From positions 1 through 42,356 of the forward strand of contig JAHBXU010000001.1 of assembly GCA_019636315.1 (NCBI GenBank): a DNA stretch of 42,356 nucleotides. The letters run 5' to 3'. The notes beneath the pieces are model-generated. The model saw nothing but the letters and a program-made list of their open reading frames with translations. It was not told the DNA's origin and did not search any database. Made by a program: the position numbers and the translations under genes. Below, piece by piece: positions 9,394 through 38,329 of the stretch (position 1 is its first letter; each line of letters starts with the position of its first letter). The stretch is from Planctomycetaceae bacterium. Lineage in GTDB: Bacteria > Planctomycetota > Planctomycetia > Planctomycetales > Planctomycetaceae.

Positions 9394-9618
9394 TGGAGAT
9401 CGTACCTCAGGTACCGCATTGGATCATGGCAACGTCCGTTTGAAGGCAGCTCCCAGCTTTTTCAGGCCCCGTATGAATGTCCTTGTCAAGATTGATACGT
9501 ATGGCCAGGCGGCCGCCTCCTGCGCCAGCGAGCGCCAGGAGCAAGGCATACAAATCGGCCCCATCTCCGTGAATCTCCTGAGCGCCAAGTCGTGCCGCCA
9601 ACTCCGTTTGACGGACTC

Positions 9619-12090: not shown

Positions 12091-12142
12091 AAGACCTCCG
12101 TCGAAGAACTCAAGAGTGAAGGTCGTCCAGGGAAAAAGTGTC

Positions 12143-26958: not shown

Positions 26959-27090
26959 GGTTTGCTCCTCCTTATATCTGGATTGAGTTGGGGCTTCCTC
27001 CGCGCGATCTGACTTCTCAGACGCATCGATCTGTCAGCTTCGGCTTCCGAAAGCCCCGGTCTCATGCCTGCATGCCTCCTGAGGCTACGC

Positions 27091-28149
27091 TTATGCCATC
27101 AACACGTGTTCGCTACTTCTCAGAAATTCTTTGGCGATCCCCAAGGCCTGATCGGTTTTCTGAATCGACCGCTCTGCCTGTGACTCCAGTCCCGTCAGGG
27201 CCCGAATGGCATCAATAGTCTCCGGAACGACGATGGCTTGGTTAAACACTTGGTAGGTGTAGTAGGCCTCGTTCCCGTTCACCGTGAGCACATCTTCCCA
27301 CAGCGCCACTTCCCACAGATCTCCGCGTCGACGTCCCAAGTCGCTCATCAGCTCGATCGTGCTATTCAGCGCCGCCACCCCCTCGTGCATGCGAATGAAG
27401 GCGATCCGTGGTGCCAGGCGGAATGCGGCCAACAATTCCTCTTTGCTCGCCGAACGGGTCAGCTCCACCCACCAGGTGTGAAGATGGCTGCTGTTATGAG
27501 ACGCTTTGGCCGCGATCGTCACGACATCCAACTCCGGATCGACGGTCTTCGCATCCGGTCCCTGGTGGCTCGGTATGGTCTTTTCCGGAATGACGGTGTT
27601 CATGATGCCGTCCAGATGCGCTTCCCATGGATCCGATGCTCGACGGATCAGCGTGCCTCGCGCGCGTTTGAGGAGTCCGGCCTTCTTCAGGGCACCGAGC
27701 GTTCGCACGATCGAGGTCGTGTTGCATGAAACGACCCTGGTGCTGGAACGACCGATGGCCGTTTCATAATTGGCCTGGGCCACGAAGGAATGCCCAGTCA
27801 GCGCATGTGATTCGCCCCCCTGGTAGATTGCCTTCACACCTAACCGCTCATAGAGTATCTTGTTGGCAGCTCCGATTTTTTTGGGCGTGCAATCCGCCAC
27901 CACGTCGACCTTCCGGAGCAAGTCATCCAAGGTGCCAGCGACTGGGATGTCGGCTGCGCGCATCGCCTCGGCCTTGTCCGGCAGCGCAGCATAGATATCC
28001 AGCCCAAGGACCGCTGCCGTCTTGATCCGGTAGTCAGTCACGACATCGGCCACGCCGACTAATTCCATATCCTCCTGTTGCTTCACCGCATCGGCCACGC
28101 GCTTGCCGATCACCCCATAGCCATTGACTGCGACTTTGACCTTTCTCAT
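27091..28149 (-). CDS. gap: class II (archaeal-type) phosphorylating glyceraldehyde-3-phosphate dehydrogenase
   Basis: 352 aa. The N-terminus is VAVNGYGVIGKRVADAV. The active-site context is VVSCNTTS, which is the class II SCNTT motif rather than the bacterial class I SCTTNC. The length and overall layout match archaeal GAPDH. Confidence 0.88.
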   Translation of the reverse strand: MRKVKVAVNGYGVIGKRVADAVKQQEDMELVGVADVVTDYRIKTAAVLGLDIYAALPDKAEAMRAADIPVAGTLDDLLRKVDVVADCTPKKIGAANKILYERLGVKAIYQGGESHALTGHSFVAQANYETAIGRSSTRVVSCNTTSIVRTLGALKKAGLLKRARGTLIRRASDPWEAHLDGIMNTVIPEKTIPSHQGPDAKTVDPELDVVTIAAKASHNSSHLHTWWVELTRSASKEELLAAFRLAPRIAFIRMHEGVAALNSTIELMSDLGRRRGDLWEVALWEDVLTVNGNEAYYTYQVFNQAIVVPETIDAIRALTGLESQAERSIQKTDQALGIAKEFLRSSEHVLMA

Positions 28150-28167
28150 GGGTTCTCTCCTTCTCCA

Positions 28168-29370
28168 TTACTGGGATTGCTCGCTGAGCACGGCGATCCC
28201 AGGTAGTTCTTCACCGCCAATGAATTTCAACGATGCCCCTCCGCCTGTTGACACATGGCTGATCTCCGTCTCCAGTACTTCCGCTTTTCGCACCGCCGCC
28301 ACGGTGTCGCCGCCTCCCACCACCGTGAAGGCGCCACGCCAATGGGCCAGTGCCATGGCCCGCGCGATGTCGACTGTCCCGTCGGCACATTCATCGACTT
28401 CGAACGCGCCGAGGGGACCGTTCCAGAAGATGGTCCCGGTTCCTTGCAGCAACTCGTGCGCGAATGCCAGGGACGTATCGCGGCCGATATCCAATCCCAT
28501 AAAGCCTGCAGGGATCTCTCGATGGACGAGTTGCAGTCTGTCCCGCTGCTCCGCGTTAGCGGCAATGACGTGGTCCTCCGGCAGCAGAATGTGCTTTCGA
28601 TACTGCGCCAGCACGTCTTTGGCCCAGGGAATGAATTCAGGCTCGACCGGCGAATCACCCGTCGCCACGCCTTGGGCAGCCAGGAACGTATAGGCGATTC
28701 CGCCGCCCAGAAGGATGGTATCGGCCTTCGGCAGCAGCGCCTTCAACGCCGACAGCTTGTCCTTGATCTTGATCCCACCGACCACCACCCTGAAGGGACG
28801 AACGGGGCGATCGCGCACCTGACTCAGGACATCCATTTCCTTACGCACGAGAAAACCGGCCAGGCGGTCTGCGAAGAGTTGTGCTGCTCCGTACGTCGAA
28901 GCATGGGCCCGGTGCATCGTGCCGAAGGCATCGTTCACATAGAGCTCCGCCAGTGCGGCGAGTTGCTTGGCAAAGACCGGATCATTTGCCTCCTCGCCCG
29001 GTTCGAACCGCAGATTCTCGAGCAGCAGAACCTCTCCAGGCTTCAACGTGGTGAGCGCTTGTTTCACCGACTCGCCAACCGCCGCCTCGACGAACTTTAC
29101 TGTTGAGACTCTCAGAATCTGTCCAAGGCGATCAGCAACCGGTTTCAGCGACAGTGCTGGCACCACTTTCCCCTTGGGCTTTCCCAGATGGGAGGCGAGG
29201 ATCACTTTCGCGCCACGCTGGGAGAGGTATTCAATCGTCGGGATGGCTTGCCGAAGGCGGTAGTCCTCACGAATCCGACCGTGATCGAGAGGCACGTTGA
29301 AGTCCACACGAACCAAGACCGTTCGTTCTCGATAGCGATCATGGGGTAGATCAGAGATGATTCGTTTCAT
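28168..29370 (-). CDS. pgk: phosphoglycerate kinase
   Basis: 400 aa. It has RVDFNVPL near the N-terminus, FWNGPLGAFE, and GGGDTVAAV near the C-terminus. Confidence 0.95.
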   Translation of the reverse strand: MKRIISDLPHDRYRERTVLVRVDFNVPLDHGRIREDYRLRQAIPTIEYLSQRGAKVILASHLGKPKGKVVPALSLKPVADRLGQILRVSTVKFVEAAVGESVKQALTTLKPGEVLLLENLRFEPGEEANDPVFAKQLAALAELYVNDAFGTMHRAHASTYGAAQLFADRLAGFLVRKEMDVLSQVRDRPVRPFRVVVGGIKIKDKLSALKALLPKADTILLGGGIAYTFLAAQGVATGDSPVEPEFIPWAKDVLAQYRKHILLPEDHVIAANAEQRDRLQLVHREIPAGFMGLDIGRDTSLAFAHELLQGTGTIFWNGPLGAFEVDECADGTVDIARAMALAHWRGAFTVVGGGDTVAAVRKAEVLETEISHVSTGGGASLKFIGGEELPGIAVLSEQSQ

Positions 29371-29392
29371 CGGTCCGTCCTCCCTGTGAGTC

Positions 29393-31834
29393 TCAGTCAG
29401 TGGGTTGTGCGGCCCCCCGCTGTAAACCCTGTTCCAGTTTCAGAATGGCCATCGTGGTCTTCAGGACCGCGTCAGGGTTGAGCGAGATGCTGTCGATGCC
29501 TTGCTCGACCAAGAACGAGGCCACGTCTGGATAGTCGCTCGGGGCCTGTCCGCAGATGCCGATCTTCTTCCCCTTCTTCCGGGCCGTCGTAATCACCGAC
29601 GCCATCATTGATGTCACCGCCTGGTTACGCTCATCGAACAGATGGGCGATGATCTCGGAATCTCGATCCACCCCAAGCGTCAATTGGGTAAGATCGTTGG
29701 ACCCGATGGAGAATCCGTCAAAGACCTCAGCGAACTGATCCGCCAACACGACATTGCTCGGAACTTCGCACATGACGTAGATCTCGAGCCCGTTCTCACC
29801 GCGCGTAAGCCCATGCTTCGCCATTTCAGCCTGGACCAGTCGCCCTTCTTCGACGGTGCGGCAGAACGGGATCATGAGCTTCACGTTGGTGAGTCCCATC
29901 TCGCCACGGACTTTCTTCATCGCACGGCACTCCAAGGCAAACCCGGCCTGATAGCGTGAATCGTAGTAGCGAGACGCACCGCGGAAGCCGATCATAGGAT
30001 TTTCCTCTGTCGGCTCATAGCCCCTTCCGCCGATGAGGTTCGCGTATTCGTTGGATTTGAAGTCACTGAGTCGGACGATGACGTCCTTGGGATAGAAGGC
30101 TGCCGCAATCATCGCAACCCCTTGGGCCAGCTTGTCCACGAAGAACTGGGCCTTGTCGGCGTAGCCCACTGTCAGTCGGTCGATCTCAGCCTTGACCGCG
30201 GCATCGTCCAACCGGTCATAGTTGAGGAGTGCGAGGGGATGTACCTTTATATAGGTGGAGATGATGAACTCCTCTCTCGCCAGCCCGACGCCGTCATTGG
30301 GGATGAAGGACAACGCGAAGGCCTCTTCCGGATTTCCGACGTTCATCATGATCTTGGTCCTCGGTCTTGTGAGGTCGCTGAGCTCAACGCGCTGCACGGT
30401 GAAGGGGAGTGCCTCTTCATAGACAAATCCCGTATCACCCTCGGCACAGGACAGCGTGACCATCTGGCCGTCCCGCAGCACCTCCGTGGCATTGCCCGTT
30501 CCGACGATAGCCGGAACGCCGAGTTCTCGACTCACAATGGCGGCATGGCATGTTCTGCCGCCGCGATTCGTGATGATGCCTGACGCCTTCTTCATCACCG
30601 GCTCCCAATCCGGATCCGTCTTGTCCGTGACCAGCACGTCGCCGTCAGTGAAGTCGCGCAACTGCTGGAGGTGTTTGACGACGCGAACCGGCCCAAGGCT
30701 GATTTTGCTGCCGACACTTCGGCCGGTGAGCAGCACCTTGCCTTTCCGACCTAAGCGATACAGTTCGAGCGAGTCTTGGCGCTTTTGCGACTGCACGGTT
30801 TCCGGCCTGGCCTGGACGATAAAGAGTTCGCCCGTATGCCCGTCTTTCGCCCATTCCATATCCATGGGGCTGGTCCGACCCTTCTTGGCACTGTAATGGT
30901 CTTCGATCACGCAGGCCCATCGTGCCAACGTGAGAATCTCGTCGTCTGTGATCGCAAATCTGGCGCGATCATCGGGTGGAACCGGCACATTCTTGACCAA
31001 CTTGCTTCCGCCGACATCGTACACGAGCTTGAACTCTTTGCTGCCCAGTATCTTCTGGAGGATCGGCCGGAATCCCTGCCTGAGGGTGGGCTTGAAGACA
31101 TAGTATTCATCGGGATTCACGGCCCCTTGCACGACGTTTTCTCCTAATCCATAGGAGGCATTGATCAGCACGGCATCGCGAAAGCCGGTCTCCGTATCGA
31201 TCGAAAACATGATGCCGGATGCGCTCAGATCCGACCGCACCATGCGTTGGACACCGATCGACAGCGCAATCTTGAGGTGATCAAACCTCTTATCAACCCG
31301 ATAGGAGATCGCACGGTCCGTGAAGAGTGAGGCAAAACACCGCTTGCAGGCATCGAGCAGCGCCTGATGGCCCTGCACGTTGAGATACGTTTCCTGCTGG
31401 CCGGCAAAGCTGGCATCCGGAAGATCTTCTGCGGTTGCGCTGCTCCGGACCGCAACATCCACGAGATCAACATGCCCATCACTCAGCCGGTCATAGGCCT
31501 CTACGATGGCTTGTTCGAGATCCTGCTGGAGACTGGCCGCCAGCATGGCCTGACGGATCTGTCTCCCCCGCTGACGGAGATTGTCCAGGTCGCGCGTGTC
31601 CAGCCCATGGAGTATCTGTGTGATCCGCTGATCCAACCCGGTCTCGCGAAGAAACGAGCGATAGGCCTCGGCCGTAATGGCAAACCCATTGGGAACCTTC
31701 ACACCCCGTGAGGCCAATTCCCGGTACATCTCGCCCAGCGAGGCATTCTTACCCCCAACCAACGGGATATCGTCGATTCCAATGTCCTCAAACCAGCGGA
31801 TCCTGGCTTGGGTAGTGGTAGCGGTATACGACAT
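29393..31834 (-). CDS. ppsA: phosphoenolpyruvate synthase (pyruvate, water dikinase)
   Basis: 813 aa. It has an N-terminal ATP-grasp region (VGGKNASLGEM), a phosphohistidine motif (GGRTCHAAIVSRELGVPAIVG) and C-terminal PEP-utilising motifs (MCEVPSN, GSNDLTQLTLGVDRDS). Confidence 0.95.
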   Translation of the reverse strand: MSYTATTTQARIRWFEDIGIDDIPLVGGKNASLGEMYRELASRGVKVPNGFAITAEAYRSFLRETGLDQRITQILHGLDTRDLDNLRQRGRQIRQAMLAASLQQDLEQAIVEAYDRLSDGHVDLVDVAVRSSATAEDLPDASFAGQQETYLNVQGHQALLDACKRCFASLFTDRAISYRVDKRFDHLKIALSIGVQRMVRSDLSASGIMFSIDTETGFRDAVLINASYGLGENVVQGAVNPDEYYVFKPTLRQGFRPILQKILGSKEFKLVYDVGGSKLVKNVPVPPDDRARFAITDDEILTLARWACVIEDHYSAKKGRTSPMDMEWAKDGHTGELFIVQARPETVQSQKRQDSLELYRLGRKGKVLLTGRSVGSKISLGPVRVVKHLQQLRDFTDGDVLVTDKTDPDWEPVMKKASGIITNRGGRTCHAAIVSRELGVPAIVGTGNATEVLRDGQMVTLSCAEGDTGFVYEEALPFTVQRVELSDLTRPRTKIMMNVGNPEEAFALSFIPNDGVGLAREEFIISTYIKVHPLALLNYDRLDDAAVKAEIDRLTVGYADKAQFFVDKLAQGVAMIAAAFYPKDVIVRLSDFKSNEYANLIGGRGYEPTEENPMIGFRGASRYYDSRYQAGFALECRAMKKVRGEMGLTNVKLMIPFCRTVEEGRLVQAEMAKHGLTRGENGLEIYVMCEVPSNVVLADQFAEVFDGFSIGSNDLTQLTLGVDRDSEIIAHLFDERNQAVTSMMASVITTARKKGKKIGICGQAPSDYPDVASFLVEQGIDSISLNPDAVLKTTMAILKLEQGLQRGAAQPTD

Positions 31835-31867: not shown

Positions 31868-32359
31868 CTATTTTTCAATGACGAAGCCCGCAGCCTTCCA
31901 GCCGTCCAATCCACCGTAGAGGCTCAGCACGTTCGCGTAACCGAGCATCCTCAGTACGGCTAACGCGATAGCACCCCGATGTCCGGTTTTGCAGTAGACA
32001 ATCAATGACGCCGCTTTGTCGCCCGGGAGGTCGTCGATGGCTGTCATGAGACTGCGGAGCGGGACGTTTTTGGCGCCCGGAATATGCTCAACCGCAAACT
32101 CGTTTGGTTCGCGTACATCGAGCACGTGGGGTACGCCGGTGGCGATCGCCTTCTCGGCCGCGACGCCCTTGATGCTGTAGTAGTCGTCGGGCATCGCGGC
32201 AAGCATCTGTTCTGCGGCGGTTCGCACCGGTGTTGACATCCACTCATGTGTCGCGGCGGCATCACTGACCTTCGCCGCATGTACCGGGCCGACCAGAACA
32301 GCGCACAGAACCAATGCGGTGCCGCTGCATGCTCGTTGTGCTAAGGCCATGGCTGCCAT
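31868..32359 (-). CDS. secreted single-domain rhodanese-like sulfurtransferase
   Basis: 163 aa. The Sec-type signal peptide (MAAMALAQRACSGTALVLCAVLVGPVHA) ends in VHA-AK. The rhodanese active-site loop is VYCKTGHRGAIA, followed by a C-terminal GGLDGW motif. Confidence 0.8.
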   Translation of the reverse strand: MAAMALAQRACSGTALVLCAVLVGPVHAAKVSDAAATHEWMSTPVRTAAEQMLAAMPDDYYSIKGVAAEKAIATGVPHVLDVREPNEFAVEHIPGAKNVPLRSLMTAIDDLPGDKAASLIVYCKTGHRGAIALAVLRMLGYANVLSLYGGLDGWKAAGFVIEK

Positions 32360-32435: not shown

Positions 32436-34064
32436 CTATTTCACTTCTCTCACCATGTCGATGGCGCCGCAGGGACATTCCTCCGCGCAGAGCCCGCATC
32501 CTTTACAGTAGTCGTAGTTGATCGCATACCGCTTCCCAGGTCCGAGCTTGATCACGGCGCTGTCGGGACACACCGCATAGCAGTTGTCACAGTTGAAGCA
32601 GTTGCCGCAGGACAGACAGCGGCGTGCCTCCAAGAGCGCGGTGTCCGCATCAAGGCCGCCGACGATCTCATCAAAACTCGACCGACGCCGCACCAGATTC
32701 AGTAACGGCTGCTTCGAGGCGTCTGCGTCGGTGTAGTACCAGGTGTTCAAACGGCTGAAGGTCGCCGGCTCATGAGCTTCCGGTTTGACGTACGCGGAGC
32801 CGCGCAAATAGGCATCGATGTGGCGGGCGGCCTTCTTCCCCTGGCCGGTGGCCACCGTGACGGATTGCTCGCCTGGCACCATGTCTCCGCCGGCGAAGAT
32901 ACCGGGACGGCCAGTCATCATCGTCCCATCCACTTCGATGGTTCCGTCCTCCCGTACACGCAACCCGGATACCCGACGAAGAAAACCGGTATCGGCCCGT
33001 TGCCCCAACGCCAGAATCACGCTATCGGCTTCGATCCTTTCGAAGCGACCGGTCGGTTGTGGTTTCCCTTGTTCATCGAGTGCCATTTCCTCGACTGTCA
33101 ATGTCGATTCGTCACCTTGCGCGATCCTTCGTAGCCATTGGAACTGCACGCCTTCGTCCTGGGCTTCCGTGATTTCGCTGGCAAACGCCGGCGCATGGCC
33201 CAAATCTCGACGGTAAATAATGATGACCGGTTCCATCCCCAACCGCTCGACACTGCGTGCCACGTCGATGGCCGTGTTGCCTCCACCGTAGATCGCGACG
33301 CGGCGTCCTAGCTTGGGGCGAGCCGCCCCTTCCATGTCGCGCAAGAACGTGACGGCATCGAGAACCCGCTTGGCATCGACCCCCGGAATTTCGACGCGCC
33401 GGGCTAGATGCGCGCCAAGCGCGAGAAAGGCGGCGTCGAATCGTCCTTCCGCCATGGTCGCCTCAAGATCGTCGACTCGGCTGTTCAGCCTAATCGTGAC
33501 ACCCATGGATTGAATTCTTGCGACTTCGGCATCCACGATCTCACGCGGCAGTCGGTACTTGGGGATGCCGTACCGCATCATGCCGCCAGCTTGTGGACCG
33601 GCTTCATGAATGGTGACCTGATGCCCCATCCGAGCCAAGTGATAGGCCGTGGAGAGTCCGCCTGGACCGGCGCCGATGACCAACACGTTCTTCCCCGTCC
33701 GTGGAGCGCACGCCACCCGCCACCCTTGCGCGATCGCCTGATCACCCAGGAACCGTTCCACCGCGTGAATGCTGACGGCCTCATCGATATGCCCACGATT
33801 ACAGGCGCTTTCACAGGGGTGATAACAGACGCGGCCGTGGATCGCGGGCATCGGGTTGTCCTGCATGAGCTGTTGCCATGCTTCTTCGTAGGCCCCTTCT
33901 TCAGCATGATAGAGCCAGGCCTGAATGTTCTCGCCGGCCGGGCAGGCGTGGTTGCACGGTGGCAAGCGATCGACATAGATCGGTTTCATCGTGCGCCAGT
34001 TTCCCGTGTGGTTGGCCAGGCTCGTGTTCGGATCGAGCGTGATGGCAAATGGTGTGCGTTCCAT
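32436..34064 (-). CDS. GltD/NfnB-like NAD(P)H-dependent flavoprotein with a C-terminal 2x[4Fe-4S] ferredoxin (OFOR-delta-like) domain
   Basis: 542 aa. GltD-type N-terminal Cys motifs are PPCNHACPAGENIQ and GRVCYHPCESACNRG. Two dinucleotide-binding motifs are present (VLVIGAGPGGLSTA, VAIYGGGNTAID), plus GIFAGGD. Two CxxCxxCxxxCP motifs occur (CFNCDNCYAVCP, CKGCGLCAEECP). The gene starts 8 nt after the OFOR beta gene. Confidence 0.85.
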   Translation of the reverse strand: MERTPFAITLDPNTSLANHTGNWRTMKPIYVDRLPPCNHACPAGENIQAWLYHAEEGAYEEAWQQLMQDNPMPAIHGRVCYHPCESACNRGHIDEAVSIHAVERFLGDQAIAQGWRVACAPRTGKNVLVIGAGPGGLSTAYHLARMGHQVTIHEAGPQAGGMMRYGIPKYRLPREIVDAEVARIQSMGVTIRLNSRVDDLEATMAEGRFDAAFLALGAHLARRVEIPGVDAKRVLDAVTFLRDMEGAARPKLGRRVAIYGGGNTAIDVARSVERLGMEPVIIIYRRDLGHAPAFASEITEAQDEGVQFQWLRRIAQGDESTLTVEEMALDEQGKPQPTGRFERIEADSVILALGQRADTGFLRRVSGLRVREDGTIEVDGTMMTGRPGIFAGGDMVPGEQSVTVATGQGKKAARHIDAYLRGSAYVKPEAHEPATFSRLNTWYYTDADASKQPLLNLVRRRSSFDEIVGGLDADTALLEARRCLSCGNCFNCDNCYAVCPDSAVIKLGPGKRYAINYDYCKGCGLCAEECPCGAIDMVREVK

Positions 34065-34072
34065 AGGTGCCT

Positions 34073-35074
34073 CTATTCCATCAGTCCATAAACAGCGATG
34101 TTGTCATCTGCCATTGCTTGGATCGCGGCGAGGGCTTCCGTGTCCTGCGGCGGACCGAACAGATGCTTGAATCGAGTCTGTAGCTCCAGATAGCGTTCGA
34201 CAGGAACTTTGCGGCGAATCGGCGTGGAGCAGATGACTTTTCCGAATTCGGCCTCGAACAGAGGGAACAGCCCGGATTCCACCGCCAGGCGCGCCACCTT
34301 CATCGTGTGTGCGGGGTCCGAGCCCCACCCCAGCGGACAAGGCACGTGCACATGGATATACCGAGCCCCGCGAACACCGATCGCCTTCGTGACTTTTCGT
34401 TCCAGGTCATGGAGATCGGCCACAGAGGCCGTCGCGACATAGGGGATCCCATGCGCGAGGGCAATCCGTGGCACGTTCTTCCCGTTCCCAATCGGGTTGC
34501 CGGGATGCTCACCCACGGCTTGCGTCGTGTTGGTTCGGGCGAACGGAGGGGTCGCCCCCGAGCGTTGGATGCCGGTGTTCATGTAGGCTTCGTTGTCGTA
34601 ACAGAGATACAGGACGTCATCGTTTCGCTCAAACATCCCGGACAGACAACCGAACCCAATGTCGACCGTCGCTCCGTCACCCCCTTGCGCGATCACCGTC
34701 ACGTCGTCACGCCTCTTGGCACGAAGCGCCGCGGCGATCCCGCTCGCCACCGCCGGTGCATTGCCGAACAGCGAATGCATCCAGGGAATTTGCCAAGCGC
34801 TTTCGGGATAGGGGCTGGAAAAGACCTCCAGACAGCCGGTTGCATTCACGGCAATCAATTGATTGTGGCTGGCACGCATGGCGGCATCGAGCGCGTAACG
34901 CGCCCCCAGCGCTTCGCCGCAACCTTGGCAGGCTCGGTGACCGGAGTTGAGCGAATTGGTCCGATCCAACCGGGATTGGACGGTCCGCGTCGCTTCATCG
35001 AGCAAACGGTTCCCAGCCGTGAAGGTGCCGGTCTGATAAAACTTTATGCGTTCCGTCGTCATCGCCTCGTCCAT
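34073..35074 (-). CDS. 2-oxoacid:ferredoxin oxidoreductase beta (TPP-binding) subunit
   Basis: The real start is judged to be the internal ATG at 35074 (MDEAMTTERIKF), which overlaps the alpha stop by 1 nt (TGATG). It has an ACQGCGE Cys motif and a TPP motif (AQGGDGATVDIGFGCLS). The 125-aa N-terminal extension in the track ORF is Arg/Cys-rich and overlaps the alpha gene. Confidence 0.9.
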   Translation of the reverse strand: MDEAMTTERIKFYQTGTFTAGNRLLDEATRTVQSRLDRTNSLNSGHRACQGCGEALGARYALDAAMRASHNQLIAVNATGCLEVFSSPYPESAWQIPWMHSLFGNAPAVASGIAAALRAKRRDDVTVIAQGGDGATVDIGFGCLSGMFERNDDVLYLCYDNEAYMNTGIQRSGATPPFARTNTTQAVGEHPGNPIGNGKNVPRIALAHGIPYVATASVADLHDLERKVTKAIGVRGARYIHVHVPCPLGWGSDPAHTMKVARLAVESGLFPLFEAEFGKVICSTPIRRKVPVERYLELQTRFKHLFGPPQDTEALAAIQAMADDNIAVYGLME

Positions 35075-36327
35075 CAACTCACTTTCGTTCCGATCACATT
35101 CATGGTTTGCAGCATATGCTCCGCGACTGGACCAGCCCGTCGGATGTCGCGCCGTCGAGCGAGCTCCTGCTCGATCACTGTCTTGTTGAGGTCCAAGAAG
35201 TACGGTTCTGTCAGACGTTCTGCACGAGCTTCCAGGATCATGTGCTTCAACGAAGATGTGGAGATGGAACGTCCTCCCAATCCTGCAATGACGGTGTGGA
35301 CGGAAATCTGCCGTCCTTGGAGCGCTGATTGGACGTCGGCAGAGACGATCCCTCCCATGCCGACGGCAAGGTCTTTCTCCACTACAATCACCCGCGTCGT
35401 CTTTTCTAGCAGTGCGCTTACCTGAAACTTCGGAAAGGGCCGATAGCATCCGATTTTGACGCAGCCGACCCGGACACCTGTGTTTCGCAGTTCGTCCACG
35501 GCGTCTTTGATCGTTCCGATGACCGACCCCATAGCAATCACCGCGATGTCGGCATCCTCCATGCGATAAGCGGAGCAGAGTCCGCCGGATCGTCGCTGAA
35601 AATGTTGCTCGAAGGCCTCCACCAATTCCGGCATGACCTCTAGCGCTCGAAGATGTTGTTGGTGCAAGAAATATTTAACTTCGGTAAACGCCTCCGGCCC
35701 CACCATGGCGCCGATGGAAACCGGACGTTCAGGATCAAGGACCTGTACCGGATCATAGGGAGGAAGATAGGCATTCACCTGAACGGCGTCCGGCACGTCC
35801 ACTGGTTCGTAGGCGTGCGTCAGCACATACCCGTCCATGCAGACCATCACCGGGCAACTCAGCGATTCGGCTAGACGGAACGCTTGAATGTGGAGATCGA
35901 CGGCGTCCTGATTATCCTCGGCAAACAACTGAATCCACCCAGCATCGCGCAACGCCATGCTGTCCGAATGATCGTTCCAAATATTGATCGGCGCGCCGAT
36001 CGCCCGGTTGGCGATGGTCATGACAATCGGGAGTCCTAGTCCGGCTACGTTGTAGACCGCCTCGGCCATAAAGAGCAGCCCCTGACTGCTCGTCGCCGTG
36101 TAGGTCCTCGCGCCGGAAGCCGAGGCGCCAATCAGGACACTCAAGGCGGCAAACTCGGATTCTACGTTCAGAAACTGGCAGCGTCCGATGTGGCCCTGCT
36201 TGGTCTTGCGTGATAACCGTTCGACAATGTGCGTCTGTGGGGAAATGGGATAGGCCGCAATGACCTCAGGTTGGCAGAGTGCAATAGCCTCAGCCACGGC
36301 TTGGGAACCCTCAATCTGCATGCGCAT
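35074..36327 (-). CDS. 2-oxoacid:ferredoxin oxidoreductase alpha subunit
   Basis: The internal ATG at 36327 gives MRMQIEGSQAVAEAIALCQPEVIAAYPISPQTHIVE, a typical PorA/VorA N-terminus. It overlaps the gamma 3' end by 17 nt. Confidence 0.9.
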   Translation of the reverse strand: MRMQIEGSQAVAEAIALCQPEVIAAYPISPQTHIVERLSRKTKQGHIGRCQFLNVESEFAALSVLIGASASGARTYTATSSQGLLFMAEAVYNVAGLGLPIVMTIANRAIGAPINIWNDHSDSMALRDAGWIQLFAEDNQDAVDLHIQAFRLAESLSCPVMVCMDGYVLTHAYEPVDVPDAVQVNAYLPPYDPVQVLDPERPVSIGAMVGPEAFTEVKYFLHQQHLRALEVMPELVEAFEQHFQRRSGGLCSAYRMEDADIAVIAMGSVIGTIKDAVDELRNTGVRVGCVKIGCYRPFPKFQVSALLEKTTRVIVVEKDLAVGMGGIVSADVQSALQGRQISVHTVIAGLGGRSISTSSLKHMILEARAERLTEPYFLDLNKTVIEQELARRRDIRRAGPVAEHMLQTMNVIGTKVS

Positions 36328-36913
36328 GGTGTACGATTCCCCTTTGTTCAGTAATAGAAGTGGTGACAACGTCAAACGCTTCCCGCGCGGCAGCCCGATT
36401 CGCCTCCCCGACCGCACCTGGGAATTTCTGCTGAATCGCTGACTCCACGGAGGCAAGCCGGATCAGTCCGGTGATCGCGGCGAACGCACCCAGCAGTGGC
36501 CCATTGGCAATGGGTCGCTTGAGGTATTTCAGCCCGAGGTCCGTGGCAGAGAACGCACACACATGGCCGAGGGGCAGCGTTGAGAGAAATTCCTCAATGT
36601 GGAGTGCATCGAGGGTCTGGGTCGAATTGATCAACACAAACCCGAGGGGGGCGAGCCCTCCGAACAAGTCGACCTGATGCAGGAGCGTCGGATCCTGAAT
36701 GATGACAACATCAGGGCGCGTCACCGTTTCGCGCGTGCGGATGGCTCCCTCAGCGACGCGGCAGAACGCCACAACCGGTGCTCCCATCCGTTCCGACCCG
36801 AAGCTCGGAAAGGCCTGGGCATATTTGCCGTCCATGAACGCCGCCATCGCGAGCAGTTCTGCCGCCGTCACGACCCCTTGCCCACCCCGCCCATGAATGC
36901 GGATTTGCCACAT
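36311..36913 (-). CDS. 2-oxoacid:ferredoxin oxidoreductase gamma subunit
   Basis: MWQIRIHGRGGQGVVTAAELLAMAAF is the gamma-subunit GRGGQG motif. The start is ambiguous among the ATGs at 36913, 36925 and 36931. The track's longer start at 37033 adds an Arg-rich, non-conserved extension. Confidence 0.85.
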   Translation of the reverse strand: MWQIRIHGRGGQGVVTAAELLAMAAFMDGKYAQAFPSFGSERMGAPVVAFCRVAEGAIRTRETVTRPDVVIIQDPTLLHQVDLFGGLAPLGFVLINSTQTLDALHIEEFLSTLPLGHVCAFSATDLGLKYLKRPIANGPLLGAFAAITGLIRLASVESAIQQKFPGAVGEANRAAAREAFDVVTTSITEQRGIVHHAHAD

Positions 36914-37565
36914 CGTGTTTCTCATCACCATCCACCGACCATGCTGATCATACGCTCGGCTCCAACGTGCTCTGGTACGCGCAGTGTGTAGATACCTGGT
37001 CGGCTCAACTGCGGTACTACACCGCCGTTTCAACTGAGAGGATCAACGGCCAGGAAGACCTAATTCCACACGAGGCCTCGGCATTCAAGAACGATCTCAT
37101 CACGCTCGCAGCTCCGAAAACGAATGACGACGCCCGCGATCCGACGGTTCCTATCCGTCTGGCTCTCCATGGACACCTCTCTTGGGTACGATGTTGGGAG
37201 ACGTCGAATCTCCGACAAGATCCACTCCGTCTCCTGCGCCAGCCGTTGAGCACTGCAATTTCACGAAGTTACTGTCACATCAACTCCGCGACTCAATGTT
37301 GGACATTGGGGAGATTGGAAACAATTTCGAGATGACGCTGTGAAGAAACTCCCCAGAAATACACCTTTCTTGATCTGACTGGATGACCTCGTGACTAAGG
37401 CGCAAGGTCCAGCAATTGCCGCAAGGGACACACGTGACCGCTGATGGAACCGATATTGGTCTTGATAATGCTCAGGGTGATGTTCTTGGCTGCACTGCCT
37501 TGTGGAGACCCTGGCTTGTCTCGACAGACAATGAATTGCTCGGCGCGTCAACGCCACGGCAAATC

Positions 37566-37814
37566 CTATTTGGTGACTGCGCGATCCAGAATGACTCGTT
37601 CTGCATCCAGCCAATCTTCGAGGTGGTAGCCATTTCGGCAGCCGCGCTCAACATACAGTTCATAGGCTCGTGCCGTGATGCGGGCGTGTAAATCGTCGAC
37701 TGCAGCTTGTGCCGAACCTGCTGCTTTGCGAGTTGACACAGGCACGTTAGGCTGCTCAACCTGCATCGTGTGCGGTTTCTTCTCCCGGAACGGTTGTGTC
37801 GTCTGAGCCTTCAT
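37566..37814 (-). CDS. DUF2934-like small protein (paralogue of 25515..25751)
   Basis: The ATG at 37814 is preceded by an AAAGGAGA Shine-Dalgarno. The C-terminal half (ITARAYELYVERGCRNGYHLEDWLDAERVIL) carries the DUF2934 signature. Confidence 0.65.
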   Translation of the reverse strand: MKAQTTQPFREKKPHTMQVEQPNVPVSTRKAAGSAQAAVDDLHARITARAYELYVERGCRNGYHLEDWLDAERVILDRAVTK

Positions 37815-38027
37815 GAGCGTCTCCTTTAACGCTAAAAAGTTTTTCCCTCCGTACGAGTCTCCTTGCTGGAAAGAACGCCAACAGCCCGTCATTCTGTGCA
37901 ACTCCGCACGCGCATGTGATGGAGTCACCCAATAGGCCCGCAGAAACGTTCCGCGCATCAGCACTGAAAACACCACCGCGAACACTGGGCCAGAAGACAT
38001 CCACGTTCAGGCCCCCGTCCTCTCACC

Positions 38028-38267
38028 TCACACTCTGGCGTACTGCCGCGCGTCGTGGAAGACATCGCTCGCGAGATGGACCGTGTAGCACCCTCGCTCT
38101 TTAGGCATCAGCCGGAGCGCCCCCTCTCGACTGAGCCGATCAATGACGATGAAGACTTGATTCCATGTGAGCTCCGGGCATTCGAGCACGATATCATCGA
38201 GAGTGCGCCCCTGTGACCGCACAATCACTTCCAGCACTCGATCATCCGTCTCATGGTGACTCATCAT
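38028..38267 (-). CDS. hypothetical small protein, winged-helix/FeoC-like pattern
   Basis: 79 aa, starting at the ATG ATG at 38267/38264, which is preceded by an AGGAGG Shine-Dalgarno. The sequence RVLEVIVRSQGRTLDDIVLECPELTWNQVFIVIDRLSREGALRL has the pattern of small wHTH proteins. I recognise no family with confidence. Confidence 0.5.
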   Translation of the reverse strand: MMSHHETDDRVLEVIVRSQGRTLDDIVLECPELTWNQVFIVIDRLSREGALRLMPKERGCYTVHLASDVFHDARQYARV

Positions 38268-38313
38268 TTCCCCTCCTGCGCAATCACATGACGTTCCTAT
38301 GGATCCCGCACAC

Positions 38314-38329
38314 TGCAGCATGGGTGCCA
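38314..38329 (-). promoter_or_regulatory. sigma-54 (-24/-12)-like promoter element, TGGCAC-N5-CTGCA
   Basis: The minus strand reads TGGCACCCATGCTGCA, against the consensus TGGCAC-N5-TTGCW. It has the correct GG/GC spacing and lies about 45 nt upstream of the 38267 start codon. Confidence 0.3.

What the first reader, a model, noticed from the sequence alone, without database searches (positions are those of the whole stretch)
32436..36913. Delta-less 2-oxoacid:ferredoxin oxidoreductase coupled to a GltD-like flavoprotein carrying the missing ferredoxin module
What the sequence shows:
- The gene order is gamma, alpha, beta, then a 542-aa protein. There is no stand-alone delta (2x[4Fe-4S]) gene between gamma and alpha, where four-subunit POR/VOR operons normally have one.
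- The 542-aa protein starts with HTGNWRTMKP. As far as I recall this resembles the TGxWR lead of OFOR delta subunits.
- It then has the complete GltD/NfnB-type module: PPCNHACPAGENIQ, GRVCYHPCESACNRG, and two GxGxxG dinucleotide folds.
- It ends with two canonical CxxCxxCxxxCP motifs (nt ~32457..32618).
- The alpha and beta genes overlap by 1 nt (TGATG), and the flavoprotein gene starts 8 nt after beta. Tight co-translation is therefore likely.

Inference: the flavoprotein may dock as the delta subunit and wire the TPP/Fe-S chain directly to NAD(P)(H). That would make a 2-oxoacid:NAD(P)+ oxidoreductase, or in reverse an NAD(P)H-linked reductive carboxylase if it is coupled or bifurcating.

Possible functional precedents are the eukaryotic pyruvate:NADP+ oxidoreductase fusions and, from memory and needing verification, an NADP-reducing three-subunit 2-oxoglutarate oxidoreductase from Azoarcus. 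I am not aware of this gamma-alpha-beta-GltD/Fd architecture having been characterised structurally.
Basis: partly seen in the sequence, partly recalled or inferred. Interest (0 to 1): 0.72.

Follow-up and report, generated by a model that had tools for sequence, protein, structure and literature searches.

The report
NADP-linked pyruvate oxidoreductase, split delta subunit
A Nitrospira operon encodes a pyruvate-type 2-oxoacid oxidoreductase whose missing ferredoxin (delta) subunit is built into an NADPH-binding flavoprotein, so the enzyme most likely passes electrons between pyruvate and NADP(H) directly; the module is widespread and already noticed by annotators, but this form has never been studied biochemically.

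Summary
On the minus strand lie gamma, alpha, beta and a 542-aa flavoprotein, tightly packed (17-nt overlap, 1-nt overlap, 8-nt gap), with no stand-alone delta gene.

The flavoprotein is a PorD delta subunit split in two. Residues 1-32 match the PorD N-terminal arm and residues 488-542 match its two-cluster ferredoxin domain. A circularly permuted NfnB/GltD-type NADPH/FAD/2x[4Fe-4S] module sits between them.

The same four-gene order occurs in all 82 related loci examined across Proteobacteria, Actinomycetota, Acidobacteriota and Nitrospirota. The TGxWR arm is kept in 81 of them (TGDWQ in one). It is lost where the partner is single-chain NifJ (3/3) or KorAB (1/1). Some relatives have gamma fused on.

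The best reading is a pyruvate:NADP+ oxidoreductase, with the flavoprotein acting as delta subunit and NADP(H) port.

It is not a new kind of system. Azoarcus 2-oxoglutarate:NADP+ oxidoreductase is a biochemical precedent. NCBIfam PRK12771 and a SEED role name already cover the protein. The orthologous "four-subunit POR" of Nitrospira marina is known to be induced at low O2. The split-delta anatomy, the breadth of distribution and the NADP(H) implication for Nitrospira appear undescribed. Reaction direction and any bifurcation are untested.

The parts
36311..36913 (-). OFOR gamma subunit (200 aa)
   Evidence: PF01558, E 1.4e-34. TIGR02175 PorC_KorC scores 195.7 bits against a cut-off of 81.1. 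Overlaps the alpha gene by 17 nt.
35074..36327 (-). OFOR alpha subunit (417 aa), PorA-like
   Evidence: POR_N and PFOR_II domains. Best solved relative is the PFOR alpha subunit 9bt4_B, E 2.5e-107. PorA_Arch scores 443 bits, below its equivalog cut-off of 550.
34073..35074 (-). OFOR beta subunit (333 aa), carrying TPP and the proximal [4Fe-4S]
   Evidence: TPP_enzyme_C domain. Best solved relative is 9bt4_C, E 4.1e-89, with the four cluster cysteines (C49, C52, C81, C246) conserved in the alignment. Its start shares one base with the alpha stop codon (TGATG).
32436..34064 (-). Flavoprotein (542 aa): PorD delta subunit split by an NfnB/GltD-type module; member of NCBIfam NF009410 (PRK12771)
   Evidence: NF009410 scores 738 bits against a cut-off of 516, over the whole length. 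Pfam finds Fer4_20, Pyr_redox_2 and Fer4_21. AF2 model has pLDDT 89.3. Starts 8 nt after the beta stop.
33969..34064 (-). Residues 1-32: PorD-type N-terminal arm (PFAITLDPNTSLANHTGNWRTMKPIYV)
   Evidence: Aligns to residues 3-30 of delta subunit 9bt4_G. T20, G21, W23, R24 and P28 are at least 90% conserved in 46 diverse relatives. The TGxWR motif is present in 81 of the 82 gamma-alpha-beta-linked loci (TGDWQ in L083) and lost in NifJ- and KorAB-linked relatives.
32775..33968 (-). Residues 33-430: GltD/NfnB core, with two [4Fe-4S] sites (C37, C41; C80, C84, C88 + E103), an FAD fold (GAGPGG at 131) and an NADPH fold (GGGNTA at 260, YRR at 284-286)
   Evidence: Sequence matches to solved structures: 9bov_A, 8oh5_C, 9n5u_A, NfnI-L and NfnB. 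Foldseek TMq is 0.79 to StnC/NfnABC and 0.65-0.67 to NfnB/GltD. E103 aligns with StnC K170 and with the NfnB 'LERF' Glu.
32604..32774 (-). Residues 431-487: linker plus the relocated GltD N-terminal segment (RRSSFDEI...EARRC483LSC486G), which is the circular-permutation junction
   Evidence: A permuted construct (residues 435-488 followed by 34-157) aligns colinearly with NfnB 4ylf_B residues 15-171, with 5vj7_A and 5jca_L, and with GltD 6s6s_G.
32439..32603 (-). Residues 488-542: PorD-type 2x[4Fe-4S] ferredoxin domain (C489/492/495/499, C520/523/526/530)
   Evidence: TIGR02179 PorD_KorD scores 72.4 bits against a cut-off of 60.05; PorD_Arch matches model positions 28-84. 9bt4_G matches at E 5e-16. 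All eight cysteines are invariant in alignments A2 and A3.

Best explanation
The four genes encode one enzyme complex: a pyruvate-type 2-oxoacid oxidoreductase in which the 542-aa flavoprotein replaces the delta subunit.

Its N-terminal arm and C-terminal two-cluster ferredoxin domain occupy the PorD position on alpha/beta. [quoted passage not shown]

The distal side runs straight into the inserted NfnB/GltD-type module. One run of six cysteines, C483-x2-C486-x2-C489-x2-C492-x2-C495-x3-C499, contributes ligands to both a GltD-type cluster and the first PorD cluster. The path then continues through the two GltD-type clusters to FAD and a NADPH site.

The inferred electron path is TPP, then the beta cluster, two PorD clusters, two GltD clusters, FAD and finally NADP+.

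The net reaction is pyruvate + CoA + NADP+ -> acetyl-CoA + CO2 + NADPH. Standard potentials (about -500 mV for the pyruvate couple and -320 mV for NADP+/NADPH, roughly -35 kJ/mol) favour the oxidative direction.

In Nitrospira it would act as an O2-sensitive, low-O2-induced route from pyruvate to acetyl-CoA, for example from glycogen or sugar breakdown. It would yield NADPH without needing free ferredoxin.

Shown here: domain anatomy, homology, synteny and conservation. Inferred: complex formation, cluster ligation, NADP(H) specificity, substrate and direction.
For: 1. Split PorD. Residues 1-33 plus 482-542 align colinearly with delta subunit 9bt4_G over residues 3-84 of 85 (E 2.4e-21) and with the Moorella OOR gamma-delta subunit. 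TIGR02179 scores above its cut-off.
2. Alpha and beta are closest to the four-subunit PFOR 9bt4. In that enzyme PorD carries the medial and distal clusters (PMC12337175). A delta-less alpha/beta/gamma would therefore have no exit wire.
3. There is no other ferredoxin motif in the window, nor inside the cluster in 70 related loci.
4. The order gamma-alpha-beta-flavoprotein is found in 80/80 loci from a species-representative genome scan, plus Magnetospirillum, Thioploca and a comammox-type Nitrospira contig.
5. TGxWR is retained in 81 of those 82 loci (TGDWQ in L083). It is lost in the 3 NifJ-adjacent relatives (55-57% identical) and in the KorAB-adjacent EbN1 protein.
6. Ten 50%-identity cluster representatives carry the POR gamma domain fused N-terminally. 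They come from Dehalococcoidales and Ca. Hydrothermae.
7. Fifteen cysteines and E103 are invariant or nearly so across 46 diverse relatives.
8. The closest solved relatives of the inserted module are the NADPH-entry modules of StnC/NfnABC, followed by NfnB. In StnC the FAD is non-bifurcating and feeds a linear cluster chain (PMC10482914).
9. 'YRR...PA' follows GGGNTA, as it does in the NADPH-binding relatives in the alignments.
10. In N. marina all four orthologous proteins rise together under low O2 (PMC8115632).
11. Precedent: Azoarcus KGOR-alpha is a GltD/NfnB homologue. From my memory of Ebenau-Jehle et al. 2003, that enzyme is NADP+-specific.
Against: - No biochemical or structural data exist for this architecture. 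Complex formation could not be modelled because no multimer tool was available.
- NADPH rather than NADH is inferred from a motif only. A sister clade (Magnetospirillum) lacks YRR.
- The genes downstream on the same strand are PEP synthase, phosphoglycerate kinase and a type II (archaeal-type) GAPDH. These are enzymes usually read as gluconeogenic. PpsA recurs next to the cluster in about 9 of 83 loci. This fits pyruvate synthesis at least as well as pyruvate oxidation.
- The FAD-proximal cluster keeps the NfnB-type Glu ligand (E103) rather than the Lys of non-bifurcating StnC. A bifurcating flavin is therefore not excluded.
- Alpha, beta and gamma score below the NCBIfam equivalog cut-offs for PorA/B/C. 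Pyruvate is the best-supported substrate but is not proven.
Confidence: 0.6

Rival explanations
1. Same complex, opposite physiological direction: an NADPH-driven pyruvate synthase (acetyl-CoA + CO2 -> pyruvate). It would feed PEP synthase, PGK and NADP-type GAPDH for gluconeogenesis from rTCA-derived acetyl-CoA under low O2. The uphill step would be made possible either by flavin-based electron bifurcation at the NfnB-like FAD, using an unidentified high-potential co-acceptor, or by mass-action pull from PEP synthase.
For: - PpsA, PGK and type II GAPDH lie downstream on the same strand.
- PpsA recurs next to the cluster in unrelated phyla.
- The NfnB-type Glu ligand E103 and R171 are conserved.
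- Bayer et al. proposed a CO2-fixing role for the N. marina orthologue.
- OFORs are reversible in principle (PMC12337175).
Against: - The reaction is about +35 kJ/mol uphill with NADPH alone (standard potentials).
- No NfnA-like or other second-acceptor gene is conserved near the cluster in 83 loci.
- The closest solved relatives of the module are non-bifurcating NADPH ports.
- PpsA adjacency is equally explained by both enzymes consuming pyruvate.
- The characterised relative (Azoarcus KGOR) works oxidatively (from memory of Ebenau-Jehle 2003).
Confidence: 0.2
2. A conventional ferredoxin-dependent four-subunit POR, as the Nitrospira literature assumes. The split-delta parts simply serve as delta and ferredoxin remains the main partner. 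The flavin module is an accessory side-port: a built-in ferredoxin:NADP+ oxidoreductase or redox-balancing or protective valve, so that both acceptors are used.
For: - The literature calls it a putative four-subunit POR.
- From memory of the Ebenau-Jehle 2003 abstract, Azoarcus KGOR could pass electrons to both ferredoxin and NADP+.
- The 55-57%-identical homologues next to NifJ, which has its own ferredoxin domain, show that the flavoprotein can also act as an add-on acceptor.
Against: - The distal PorD cluster is sequence-contiguous with a GltD cluster (C486/C489). Its normal ferredoxin-docking face is therefore likely occupied (inference).
- No ferredoxin gene is conserved nearby.
Confidence: 0.12
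3. The flavoprotein is functionally unrelated to the OFOR and merely adjacent. It would be a stand-alone NfnB, sulfide dehydrogenase (SudA) or glutamate synthase small subunit.
For: Some sources name homologues 'glutamate synthase' or 'formate dehydrogenase beta subunit'. The GltD-family HMMs all hit the protein.
Against: - There is no NfnA/SudB or GltB partner in the window or in related loci.
- Scores are below the cut-offs of all GltD/GltA models but above that of PRK12771.
- The protein has PorD arm and domain homology.
- Synteny holds in 82/82 loci and gamma fusions exist.
- The four proteins are co-induced in N. marina.
Confidence: 0.02
4. The architecture is as in the best explanation, but the physiological substrate is another 2-oxoacid (2-oxoglutarate, 2-oxoisovalerate, glyoxylate or oxalate-type, or an aryl-pyruvate) rather than pyruvate.
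For: - Alpha, beta and gamma are below the PorA/B/C equivalog cut-offs. They also hit the VOR, oxalate oxidoreductase and phenylglyoxylate dehydrogenase models.
- The characterised NADP+-linked relative uses 2-oxoglutarate.
Against: - Por models score clearly best: alpha 443 vs 286 bits for VOR, beta 340 vs 283.
- The best solved relative is a PFOR.
- PEP synthase, a pyruvate enzyme, is the only recurrent neighbour.
- The closest flavoprotein relatives outside the gamma-alpha-beta clade pair with NifJ-type pyruvate oxidoreductase.
Confidence: 0.1

Closest known systems
2-Oxoglutarate:NADP+ oxidoreductase (KGOR) of Azoarcus evansii (Ebenau-Jehle, Boll & Fuchs 2003); homologous cluster on Aromatoleum aromaticum EbN1 plasmid 2
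   Same: - An OFOR carrying a dedicated GltD/NfnB-type FAD/Fe-S/NADPH subunit encoded next to the TPP subunits.
- The EbN1 flavoprotein has Fer4_20 + Pyr_redox_2 + a C-terminal dicluster domain and the same permuted 'RCLNC' placement.
- KGOR-alpha is listed as a GltD/NfnB homologue.
   Different: - The partner is the two-subunit KorA (gamma-alpha fusion, 622 aa) plus KorB type, with the flavoprotein gene first.
- Only 30% identity to the window protein.
- No PorD-type TGxWR arm.
- Scores below the PRK12771 cut-off, 389 vs 516 bits.
- The substrate is 2-oxoglutarate.
- I could not read the original paper because it is not held. Enzyme properties are quoted from memory.
'Putative four-subunit POR' (alt_porGAB + alt_porD) of Nitrospira marina Nb-295 and lineage IVa or marine Nitrospirales (Bayer et al. 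2021; Mueller et al. 2023)
   Same: [quoted passage not shown]
- Marine Nitrospirales homologues are 64-73% identical.
- All four proteins are induced at low O2.
   Different: - Those papers treat it as a ferredoxin-dependent, possibly more efficient CO2-fixing POR. They did not analyse the flavin module or the split delta.
- They state that it is restricted to lineage IVa. Here it occurs in other Nitrospira, including a 4.0-Mb contig with amoC nearby.
- No enzymology has been done.
Four-subunit PFOR (alpha-beta-gamma-delta)2, e.g. Methanosarcina acetivorans (PDB 9bt4); Pyrococcus/Thermotoga POR
   Same: - Alpha, beta and gamma are the closest solved relatives (E 2.5e-107 and 4.1e-89).
- Both halves of the delta subunit are recognisably present.
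   Different: - Delta is not a separate 85-aa protein. It is interrupted by about 455 residues of flavoprotein.
- The acceptor is presumably NADP+ rather than free ferredoxin.
- Beta has a roughly 32-residue N-terminal extension and alpha a roughly 30-residue C-terminal extension relative to 9bt4. Both extensions are conserved in the family.
GltD-like NADPH modules of StnC (8oh5) and NfnABC (9bov, 9n5u); NfnB/NfnL of NfnAB (4ylf, 5jca)
   Same: - Same fold (TMq 0.79 and 0.65-0.67).
- Same permuted topology as StnC/NfnABC.
- FAD, an NADPH site and two [4Fe-4S] clusters feeding a cluster chain.
- Glu at the proximal-cluster ligand position, as in NfnB.
   Different: - No HydBC-like bifurcating module (as in Stn/NfnABC) and no NfnA partner.
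- The chain leads into an OFOR instead.
Pyruvate:NADP+ oxidoreductase (PNO) of Euglena gracilis and Cryptosporidium parvum
   Same: Works alike: a PFOR core wired covalently to an NADP+-reducing flavoprotein module, making ferredoxin unnecessary (established knowledge).
   Different: - The flavoprotein is unrelated: a CPR-type FMN/FAD domain fused to single-chain PFOR.
- It is eukaryotic and not a family member.
Phenylglyoxylate:NAD+ oxidoreductase PadEFGHI (Azoarcus evansii)
   Same: - A Por-type gamma/alpha/beta OFOR coupled to pyridine nucleotide through an extra flavoprotein subunit.
- The window alpha, beta and gamma hit the Pad models (E 1e-80, 2e-54 and 1.6e-43).
   Different: - It has a stand-alone delta and a different flavoprotein (the epsilon subunit).
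- The window proteins score far below the Pad equivalog cut-offs.
NifJ-adjacent PRK12771-like flavoproteins (Phenylobacterium zucineum and Methylovirgula plasmids, Aeromonas caviae)
   Same: - 55-57% identical over the full length, with the same C-terminal ferredoxin domain.
- Encoded directly upstream of a pyruvate oxidoreductase.
   Different: - The partner is single-chain PFOR with its own domain V.
- The TGxWR arm is degenerate.
- A DHODH-like gene follows nifJ.
- They are uncharacterised.

Membership tests
Four-subunit POR/VOR family (PorABCD type OFOR) | Gamma subunit (PF01558 / TIGR02175) | tested here: met
   PF01558 E 1.4e-34. TIGR02175 scores 195.7 bits against a cut-off of 81.1.
Four-subunit POR/VOR family (PorABCD type OFOR) | Alpha subunit with POR_N and PFOR_II domains; beta subunit with a TPP domain and four Cys for the proximal [4Fe-4S] | tested here: met
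   Pfam hits. Alignment to 9bt4_C shows the CxxC, TGC and PCP cysteines conserved.
Four-subunit POR/VOR family (PorABCD type OFOR) | Stand-alone delta subunit gene (about 85-105 aa, 2x[4Fe-4S]) in the operon | tested here: not met
   No such ORF or motif is present in the window or within the cluster in 70 related loci.
Four-subunit POR/VOR family (PorABCD type OFOR) | Delta-type sequence (TIGR02179 PorD_KorD), including the N-terminal arm | tested here: met
   Present, but embedded in the flavoprotein. TIGR02179 scores 72.4 bits against a cut-off of 60.05. The colinear match to 9bt4_G includes the arm.
Four-subunit POR/VOR family (PorABCD type OFOR) | Equivalog-level identity to pyruvate synthase PorA/PorB/PorC | tested here: not met
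   Scores are 443 vs cut-off 550, 340 vs 405 and 202 vs 270 bits. Por is the best model but below cut-off.
NCBIfam NF009410 (PRK12771, 'NAD(P)-binding protein') | Full-length score above the curated cut-off | tested here: met
   738.3 bits against a cut-off of 516, covering residues 5-540 and profile positions 18-565 of 566. The model carries no functional name.
NfnAB transhydrogenase (NfnB large subunit) | GltD-type fold with FAD, an NADPH site, two [4Fe-4S] clusters and a Glu ligand on the proximal cluster | tested here: met
   Sequence and fold matches. E103 aligns with the NfnB 'LERF' Glu. The ligation itself is inferred.
NfnAB transhydrogenase (NfnB large subunit) | NfnA (FAD/[2Fe-2S]) partner gene and canonical N-terminal RCxxC...PCxxxCP order | tested here: not met
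   No NfnA-like gene is present in the window or conserved in 83 loci. The topology is circularly permuted.
Glutamate synthase small subunit (GltD) | Score above the GltD model cut-offs and an adjacent GltB large subunit | tested here: not met
   TIGR01317 and TIGR01318 score 188 and 244 bits against cut-offs of 448 and 483. No GltB is present in the window.
Azoarcus-type NADP+-dependent 2-oxoglutarate oxidoreductase (KGOR) | GltD-like FAD/Fe-S subunit encoded with the OFOR subunits | tested here: met
   The EbN1 cluster serves for comparison.
Azoarcus-type NADP+-dependent 2-oxoglutarate oxidoreductase (KGOR) | KorA (fused gamma-alpha) plus KorB two-subunit core | tested here: not met
   The window has separate PorC-, PorA- and PorB-type genes. 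EbN1 has a 622-aa TIGR03710 alpha subunit.
Azoarcus-type NADP+-dependent 2-oxoglutarate oxidoreductase (KGOR) | 2-oxoacid- and CoA-dependent reduction of NADP+ (not NAD+) | not testable with these tools
   This needs an enzyme assay. Only the YRR motif after GGGNTA supports NADPH.
Stn/NfnABC (Bfu-type) transhydrogenases | GltD-like module fused to a NuoG-like domain and associated with HydBC-like bifurcating subunits | tested here: not met
   The protein ends after the PorD domain. No HydB/HydC-like genes are present in the window.

The most novel reading that the evidence does not exclude
The NfnB-like FAD would be a bifurcating flavin. It retains the Glu-ligated proximal cluster that marks the low-potential branch of NfnB. 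Its low-potential branch would be hard-wired into the OFOR active site.

The complex would then be an NADPH-driven, ferredoxin-independent pyruvate synthase. Half of the electrons would be dumped on a still unknown high-potential acceptor.

This would let aerobes and microaerophiles such as Nitrospira carboxylate acetyl-CoA without making free low-potential ferredoxin. It would feed the adjacent PEP synthase, PGK and NADP-GAPDH genes.
Probability: 0.1. Interest if true: 0.85.

Novelty: new variant of a known kind. Interest (0 to 1): 0.5.

Why it matters
- **Nitrospira physiology.** If the complex is NADP(H)-linked, the low-O2-induced 'four-subunit POR' of Nitrospira is not simply a faster ferredoxin-dependent CO2-fixing isoenzyme, as currently assumed. 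It would couple the pyruvate/acetyl-CoA node directly to the NADPH pool. That changes how carbon and reductant budgets of nitrite oxidisers and comammox bacteria under hypoxia should be modelled.
- **Breadth.** The same four-gene module occurs in many largely aerobic or facultative lineages: Rhodocyclaceae, Gallionella, Azospirillum, Magnetospirillum, Solirubrobacterales, Streptomyces and Actinomycetaceae. One enzymological study would therefore annotate thousands of genes now called 'NAD(P)-binding protein' or 'glutamate synthase'.
- **Protein evolution.** The split-delta anatomy is a clean example of modular redox-protein evolution. A ferredoxin subunit has been opened to accept a circularly permuted NfnB-type module.
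- **A ready experiment.** Nature supplies a control: the arm is kept with delta-less partners and lost with NifJ or KorAB partners. This makes the docking hypothesis directly testable.
- **Engineering.** A ferredoxin-independent link between pyruvate and NADPH is also of interest for metabolic engineering.

Tried and rejected
- **First AF2 run.** The run with 21 Nitrospira-only sequences gave an unusable model (pLDDT 47). It was replaced by a 78-sequence, two-clade alignment (pLDDT 89.3). Coordinates are not exposed, so Cys-Cys and cluster distances and arm/ferredoxin-domain packing could not be measured. No multimer prediction was possible.
- **Profile search.** The word-indexed protein search with a diverse alignment returned only more Nitrospirales, so it did not widen taxonomy. 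The genome-contig scan and the plasmid tblastn did.
- **Azoarcus KGOR paper.** The original paper could not be read by DOI or PMC id. Three literature searches for a characterised bacterial Por-type NADP+ enzyme or a 'GltD-like' OFOR subunit found nothing relevant. This is absence of evidence in an open-access library only.
- **Neighbourhood clustering.** Clustering of 83 loci found no conserved partner beyond PpsA: no ferredoxin, NfnA-like or other acceptor gene. The crude ORF caller also picked up antisense ORFs in GC-rich DNA.
- **Regulatory scans.** The promoter/terminator scan and an Rfam scan of the region, including the 650-nt upstream gap, found nothing.
- **Readings rejected.** I rejected stand-alone Nfn, SudA or GltD; the idea that a separate delta lies between gamma and alpha; and membership of the Stn/NfnABC family.

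Full report
**1. Observation**

The window is from a Nitrospira: homologues up to 99% identical are named Nitrospira sp.. On the minus strand lie four tightly packed genes:
- gamma, 36311-36913, 200 aa, PF01558.
- alpha, 35074-36327, 417 aa, POR_N + PFOR_II.
- beta, 34073-35074, 333 aa, TPP_enzyme_C.
- a 542-aa flavoprotein, 32436-34064, with Fer4_20 + Pyr_redox_2 + a C-terminal dicluster domain.

Gamma and alpha overlap by 17 nt. Alpha and beta share one base (TGATG). The flavoprotein starts 8 nt after the beta stop. The two CxxCxxCxxxCP motifs (nt 32565-32600 and 32472-32507) are the only ones in any frame of the whole window.

**2. Anatomy of the flavoprotein**

Three independent alignments define it.

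(a) *Split PorD.* A chimera of residues 1-33 plus 482-542 aligns colinearly with residues 3-84 of the 85-residue delta subunit of a solved four-subunit PFOR (9bt4_G, E 2.4e-21). It also aligns with the delta part of Moorella oxalate oxidoreductase. For example, PFAITLDPNTSLANHTGNWRTMKPIYV matches PIGGTCEPGSTLANKTGGWRNFRPVYI. The C-terminus alone passes the curated PorD_KorD cut-off (72.4 vs 60.05 bits).

(b) *NfnB/GltD core.* Residues about 33-430 are an NfnB/GltD-type core. The best solved matches are the GltD-like modules of NfnABC (9bov_A, 9n5u_A) and StnC (8oh5_C), then NfnI-L, NfnB, GltD and DPD. A high-confidence AF2 model (pLDDT 89.3, pTM 0.88) gives the same ranking by fold: TMq 0.79 for the first group and 0.65-0.67 for NfnB/GltD.

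(c) *Circular permutation.* A construct of residues 435-488 followed by 34-157 aligns colinearly with the N-termini of NfnB (4ylf_B 15-171; also 5vj7_A and 5jca_L) and GltD (6s6s_G). The segment 'RRSSFDEI...EARRC483LSC486G' opens canonical NfnB/GltD. Here it lies after the flavin domains, as it does in StnC/NfnABC.

The order is therefore: PorD arm, GltD core, relocated GltD N-segment, PorD ferredoxin domain.

The last cysteine of the GltD-type motif (C486) and the first of the PorD motif (C489) are two residues apart, within one run of six evenly spaced cysteines. Across 46 relatives only 35-58% identical, 15 cysteines are invariant. E103, T20, G21, W23, R24 and P28 are at least 90% conserved. 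By homology this gives four [4Fe-4S] clusters. One of them is ligated by three Cys plus Glu103. That position is Lys170 in non-bifurcating StnC and Glu in NfnB.

**3. Does it belong to the OFOR?**

*Synteny.* A scan of one genome per species returned 80 loci with flavoproteins 56-66% identical. They come from Alpha-, Beta- and Gammaproteobacteria, Actinomycetota and Bryobacteraceae.
- In all 80, beta lies directly upstream.
- All loci with enough flank carry gamma-alpha-beta-flavoprotein in the same order.
- In the 70 complete loci, median gaps are 17, 27.5 and 32 nt, and no ferredoxin-motif ORF lies inside the cluster.
- A second clade about 41% identical (Magnetospirillum, Thioploca) and a 4.0-Mb Nitrospira contig with amoC nearby show the same order.

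*Fusions.* Ten 50%-identity cluster representatives have the gamma domain fused to the N-terminus. These come from Dehalococcoidales and Ca. Hydrothermae.

*A natural control.* The TGxWR arm is present in 81 of the 82 gamma-alpha-beta-linked loci; the exception, Thioploca (L083), reads TGDWQ. It is degenerate in three 55-57%-identical relatives encoded next to single-chain NifJ, which has its own ferredoxin domain. It is absent from the KorAB-linked protein of Aromatoleum EbN1.

*Why a delta equivalent is needed.* In the canonical enzyme PorD carries the medial and distal clusters (PMC12337175). Gamma/alpha/beta alone would therefore have no exit wire.

*Expression.* In N. marina the four orthologous proteins rise together under low O2 (PMC8115632).

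**4. Mechanism**

Best reading (confidence about 0.6): one complex in which the flavoprotein is both delta subunit and NADP(H) port. The inferred path is TPP, beta cluster, two PorD clusters, two GltD clusters, FAD, NADP+.

Support for NADPH comes from 'YRR..PA' after GGGNTA, as in the NADPH-binding relatives. It also comes from the fact that the nearest solved modules are NADPH ports. In StnC, FAD is explicitly non-bifurcating and feeds a linear cluster chain (PMC10482914).

Standard potentials make pyruvate oxidation by NADP+ exergonic by about 35 kJ/mol (about -500 mV for the pyruvate couple and -320 mV for NADP+/NADPH; textbook values). I therefore favour a pyruvate:NADP+ oxidoreductase.

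Pyruvate is the best-supported substrate but is unproven:
- Por models score best, though below equivalog cut-offs.
- The closest solved relatives are PFOR subunits.
- The only recurrent neighbour is PEP synthase.
- Sister flavoproteins pair with NifJ.

**5. Rival readings**

*Reverse direction.* The main counter-evidence on direction is context. PpsA, PGK and a bona fide type II GAPDH follow on the same strand. PpsA recurs in about 9 of 83 loci. This fits acetyl-CoA to pyruvate to PEP to triose phosphate.
- With NADPH alone that is strongly uphill.
- It would need bifurcation at the NfnB-like flavin. The conserved Glu103 keeps this open.
- However, no second-acceptor gene is conserved.
- I give the reverse or bifurcating reading about 0.2 overall, and about 0.1 for true bifurcation.

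*Other readings.*
- A conventional ferredoxin-dependent POR with the flavin module as a side-port: about 0.12.
- An unrelated neighbour (Nfn, SudA or GltD): effectively excluded.

**6. Comparison with what is known**

*Biochemical precedent.* The three-subunit, NADP+-specific KGOR of Azoarcus evansii has a flavoprotein that is a GltD/NfnB homologue (PMC10134865). Enzyme details are from my memory of Ebenau-Jehle et al. 2003, which I could not retrieve. Aromatoleum EbN1 plasmid 2 carries the matching flavoprotein-KorA-KorB cluster. That flavoprotein differs from the window protein:
- It is only 30% identical.
- It lacks the arm.
- It falls below the PRK12771 cut-off (389 vs 516 bits).

The window protein scores 738 bits on the same model.

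*Prior annotation.* The protein family is already delimited by NCBIfam (name: 'NAD(P)-binding protein'). It also has a SEED-style role name. JGI calls it a delta subunit. Nitrospira papers call the cluster a putative four-subunit POR restricted to lineage IVa. My data show it is wider than that.

*Structural gap.* No solved structure contains this architecture.

*Functional analogues that are not relatives.* Euglena and Cryptosporidium PNO and PadEFGHI work in a similar way, but their flavoproteins are unrelated to this one.

**7. Verdict**

The system is a new variant of a known kind, not a new kind.

What appears undescribed:
- the split-delta and permuted-NfnB anatomy;
- the rule linking arm retention to partner type;
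- the breadth of distribution;
- the implication that the Nitrospira low-O2 'POR' is NADP(H)-linked.

Interest is moderate, at 0.5.

Noticed in passing
window 25894-31834 (minus strand): Directly downstream on the same strand lie five genes. They are a signal-peptide rhodanese (31868-32359), PEP synthase (29393-31834), phosphoglycerate kinase (28168-29370), a bona fide type II archaeal-type GAPDH (27091-28149; 455 bits against a cut-off of 185) and a Zn-dependent alcohol dehydrogenase (25894-26958). A Zn-ADH and a type II GAPDH also flank the NifJ-paired homologue on the Phenylobacterium zucineum plasmid (L085). This suggests a recurrent hypoxia or pyruvate-node gene set.
   Followed up: partly
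window 6208-16584 (minus strand): A carbohydrate-store block: phosphoketolase (14209-16584), a GlgX-type debranching enzyme (12143-14233), glycogen phosphorylase (9619-12090), and a GH65 disaccharide phosphorylase fused to a HAD (beta-phosphoglucomutase-like) domain (6208-9393). Together with the POR cluster, this hints at glycogen or trehalose catabolism under low O2.
   Followed up: no
L085 5938-12227; L086 8953-15279; L087 7001-12207: In Phenylobacterium, Methylovirgula and Aeromonas caviae, a 55-57%-identical flavoprotein with a degenerate arm sits directly upstream of single-chain nifJ. In L085 and L086 the next gene is a dihydroorotate-dehydrogenase-like gene (not found in L087). That trio resembles the domain set of dihydropyrimidine dehydrogenase. 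Its function is unknown.
   Followed up: partly
P0137, P0158, P0168, P0197, P0203, P0211, P0235, P0247, P0248, P0266: Relatives of about 710-780 aa have the POR gamma domain fused in front of the arm-GltD-ferredoxin protein. The named ones come from Dehalococcoidales and Ca. Hydrothermae. Their gene neighbourhoods were not examined.
   Followed up: partly
window 34955-35074 (beta N-terminus) and 35074-35223 (alpha C-terminus): Relative to the solved PFOR 9bt4, beta has about 32 extra N-terminal residues and alpha about 30 extra C-terminal residues. Both extensions align across the 80 related loci. They may be contact surfaces for the large flavoprotein.
   Followed up: partly
L001 (4.0-Mb Nitrospira contig) 1-21626: A 74%-identical copy of the cluster lies near amoC, acetyl-CoA synthetase, Cu/Zn superoxide dismutase and PEP synthase. 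This contradicts published statements that this POR form is confined to lineage IVa or marine Nitrospira.
   Followed up: partly
L082 11639-14883 (Magnetospirillum sulfuroxidans): FixABC-type electron-transfer flavoprotein genes (ETF alpha, ETF beta and FixC) lie just downstream of the four-gene cluster on the opposite strand. This is a possible link to low-potential electron supply.
   Followed up: no
alignment A3, columns for residues 284-286: The Magnetospirillum/Thioploca clade replaces the YRR that follows GGGNTA with T-(A/H)-S. Pyridine-nucleotide preference may therefore differ between clades.
   Followed up: no
window 36914-38321: A gap of about 650 nt with no convincing ORF lies upstream of gamma. 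It has no sigma-70-like promoter and no Rfam hit. Beyond it lie a DUF2934 protein (37566-38000) and an unassigned 97-aa ORF (38028-38321).
   Followed up: partly
window 22996-25416 (minus strand): An 806-aa ORF combines an ABC-transporter substrate-binding-like domain (PF04392) with TolC-type outer-membrane efflux repeats (PF02321). It lies next to HlyD and ABC-2 transporter genes. This is an unusual fusion.
   Followed up: no
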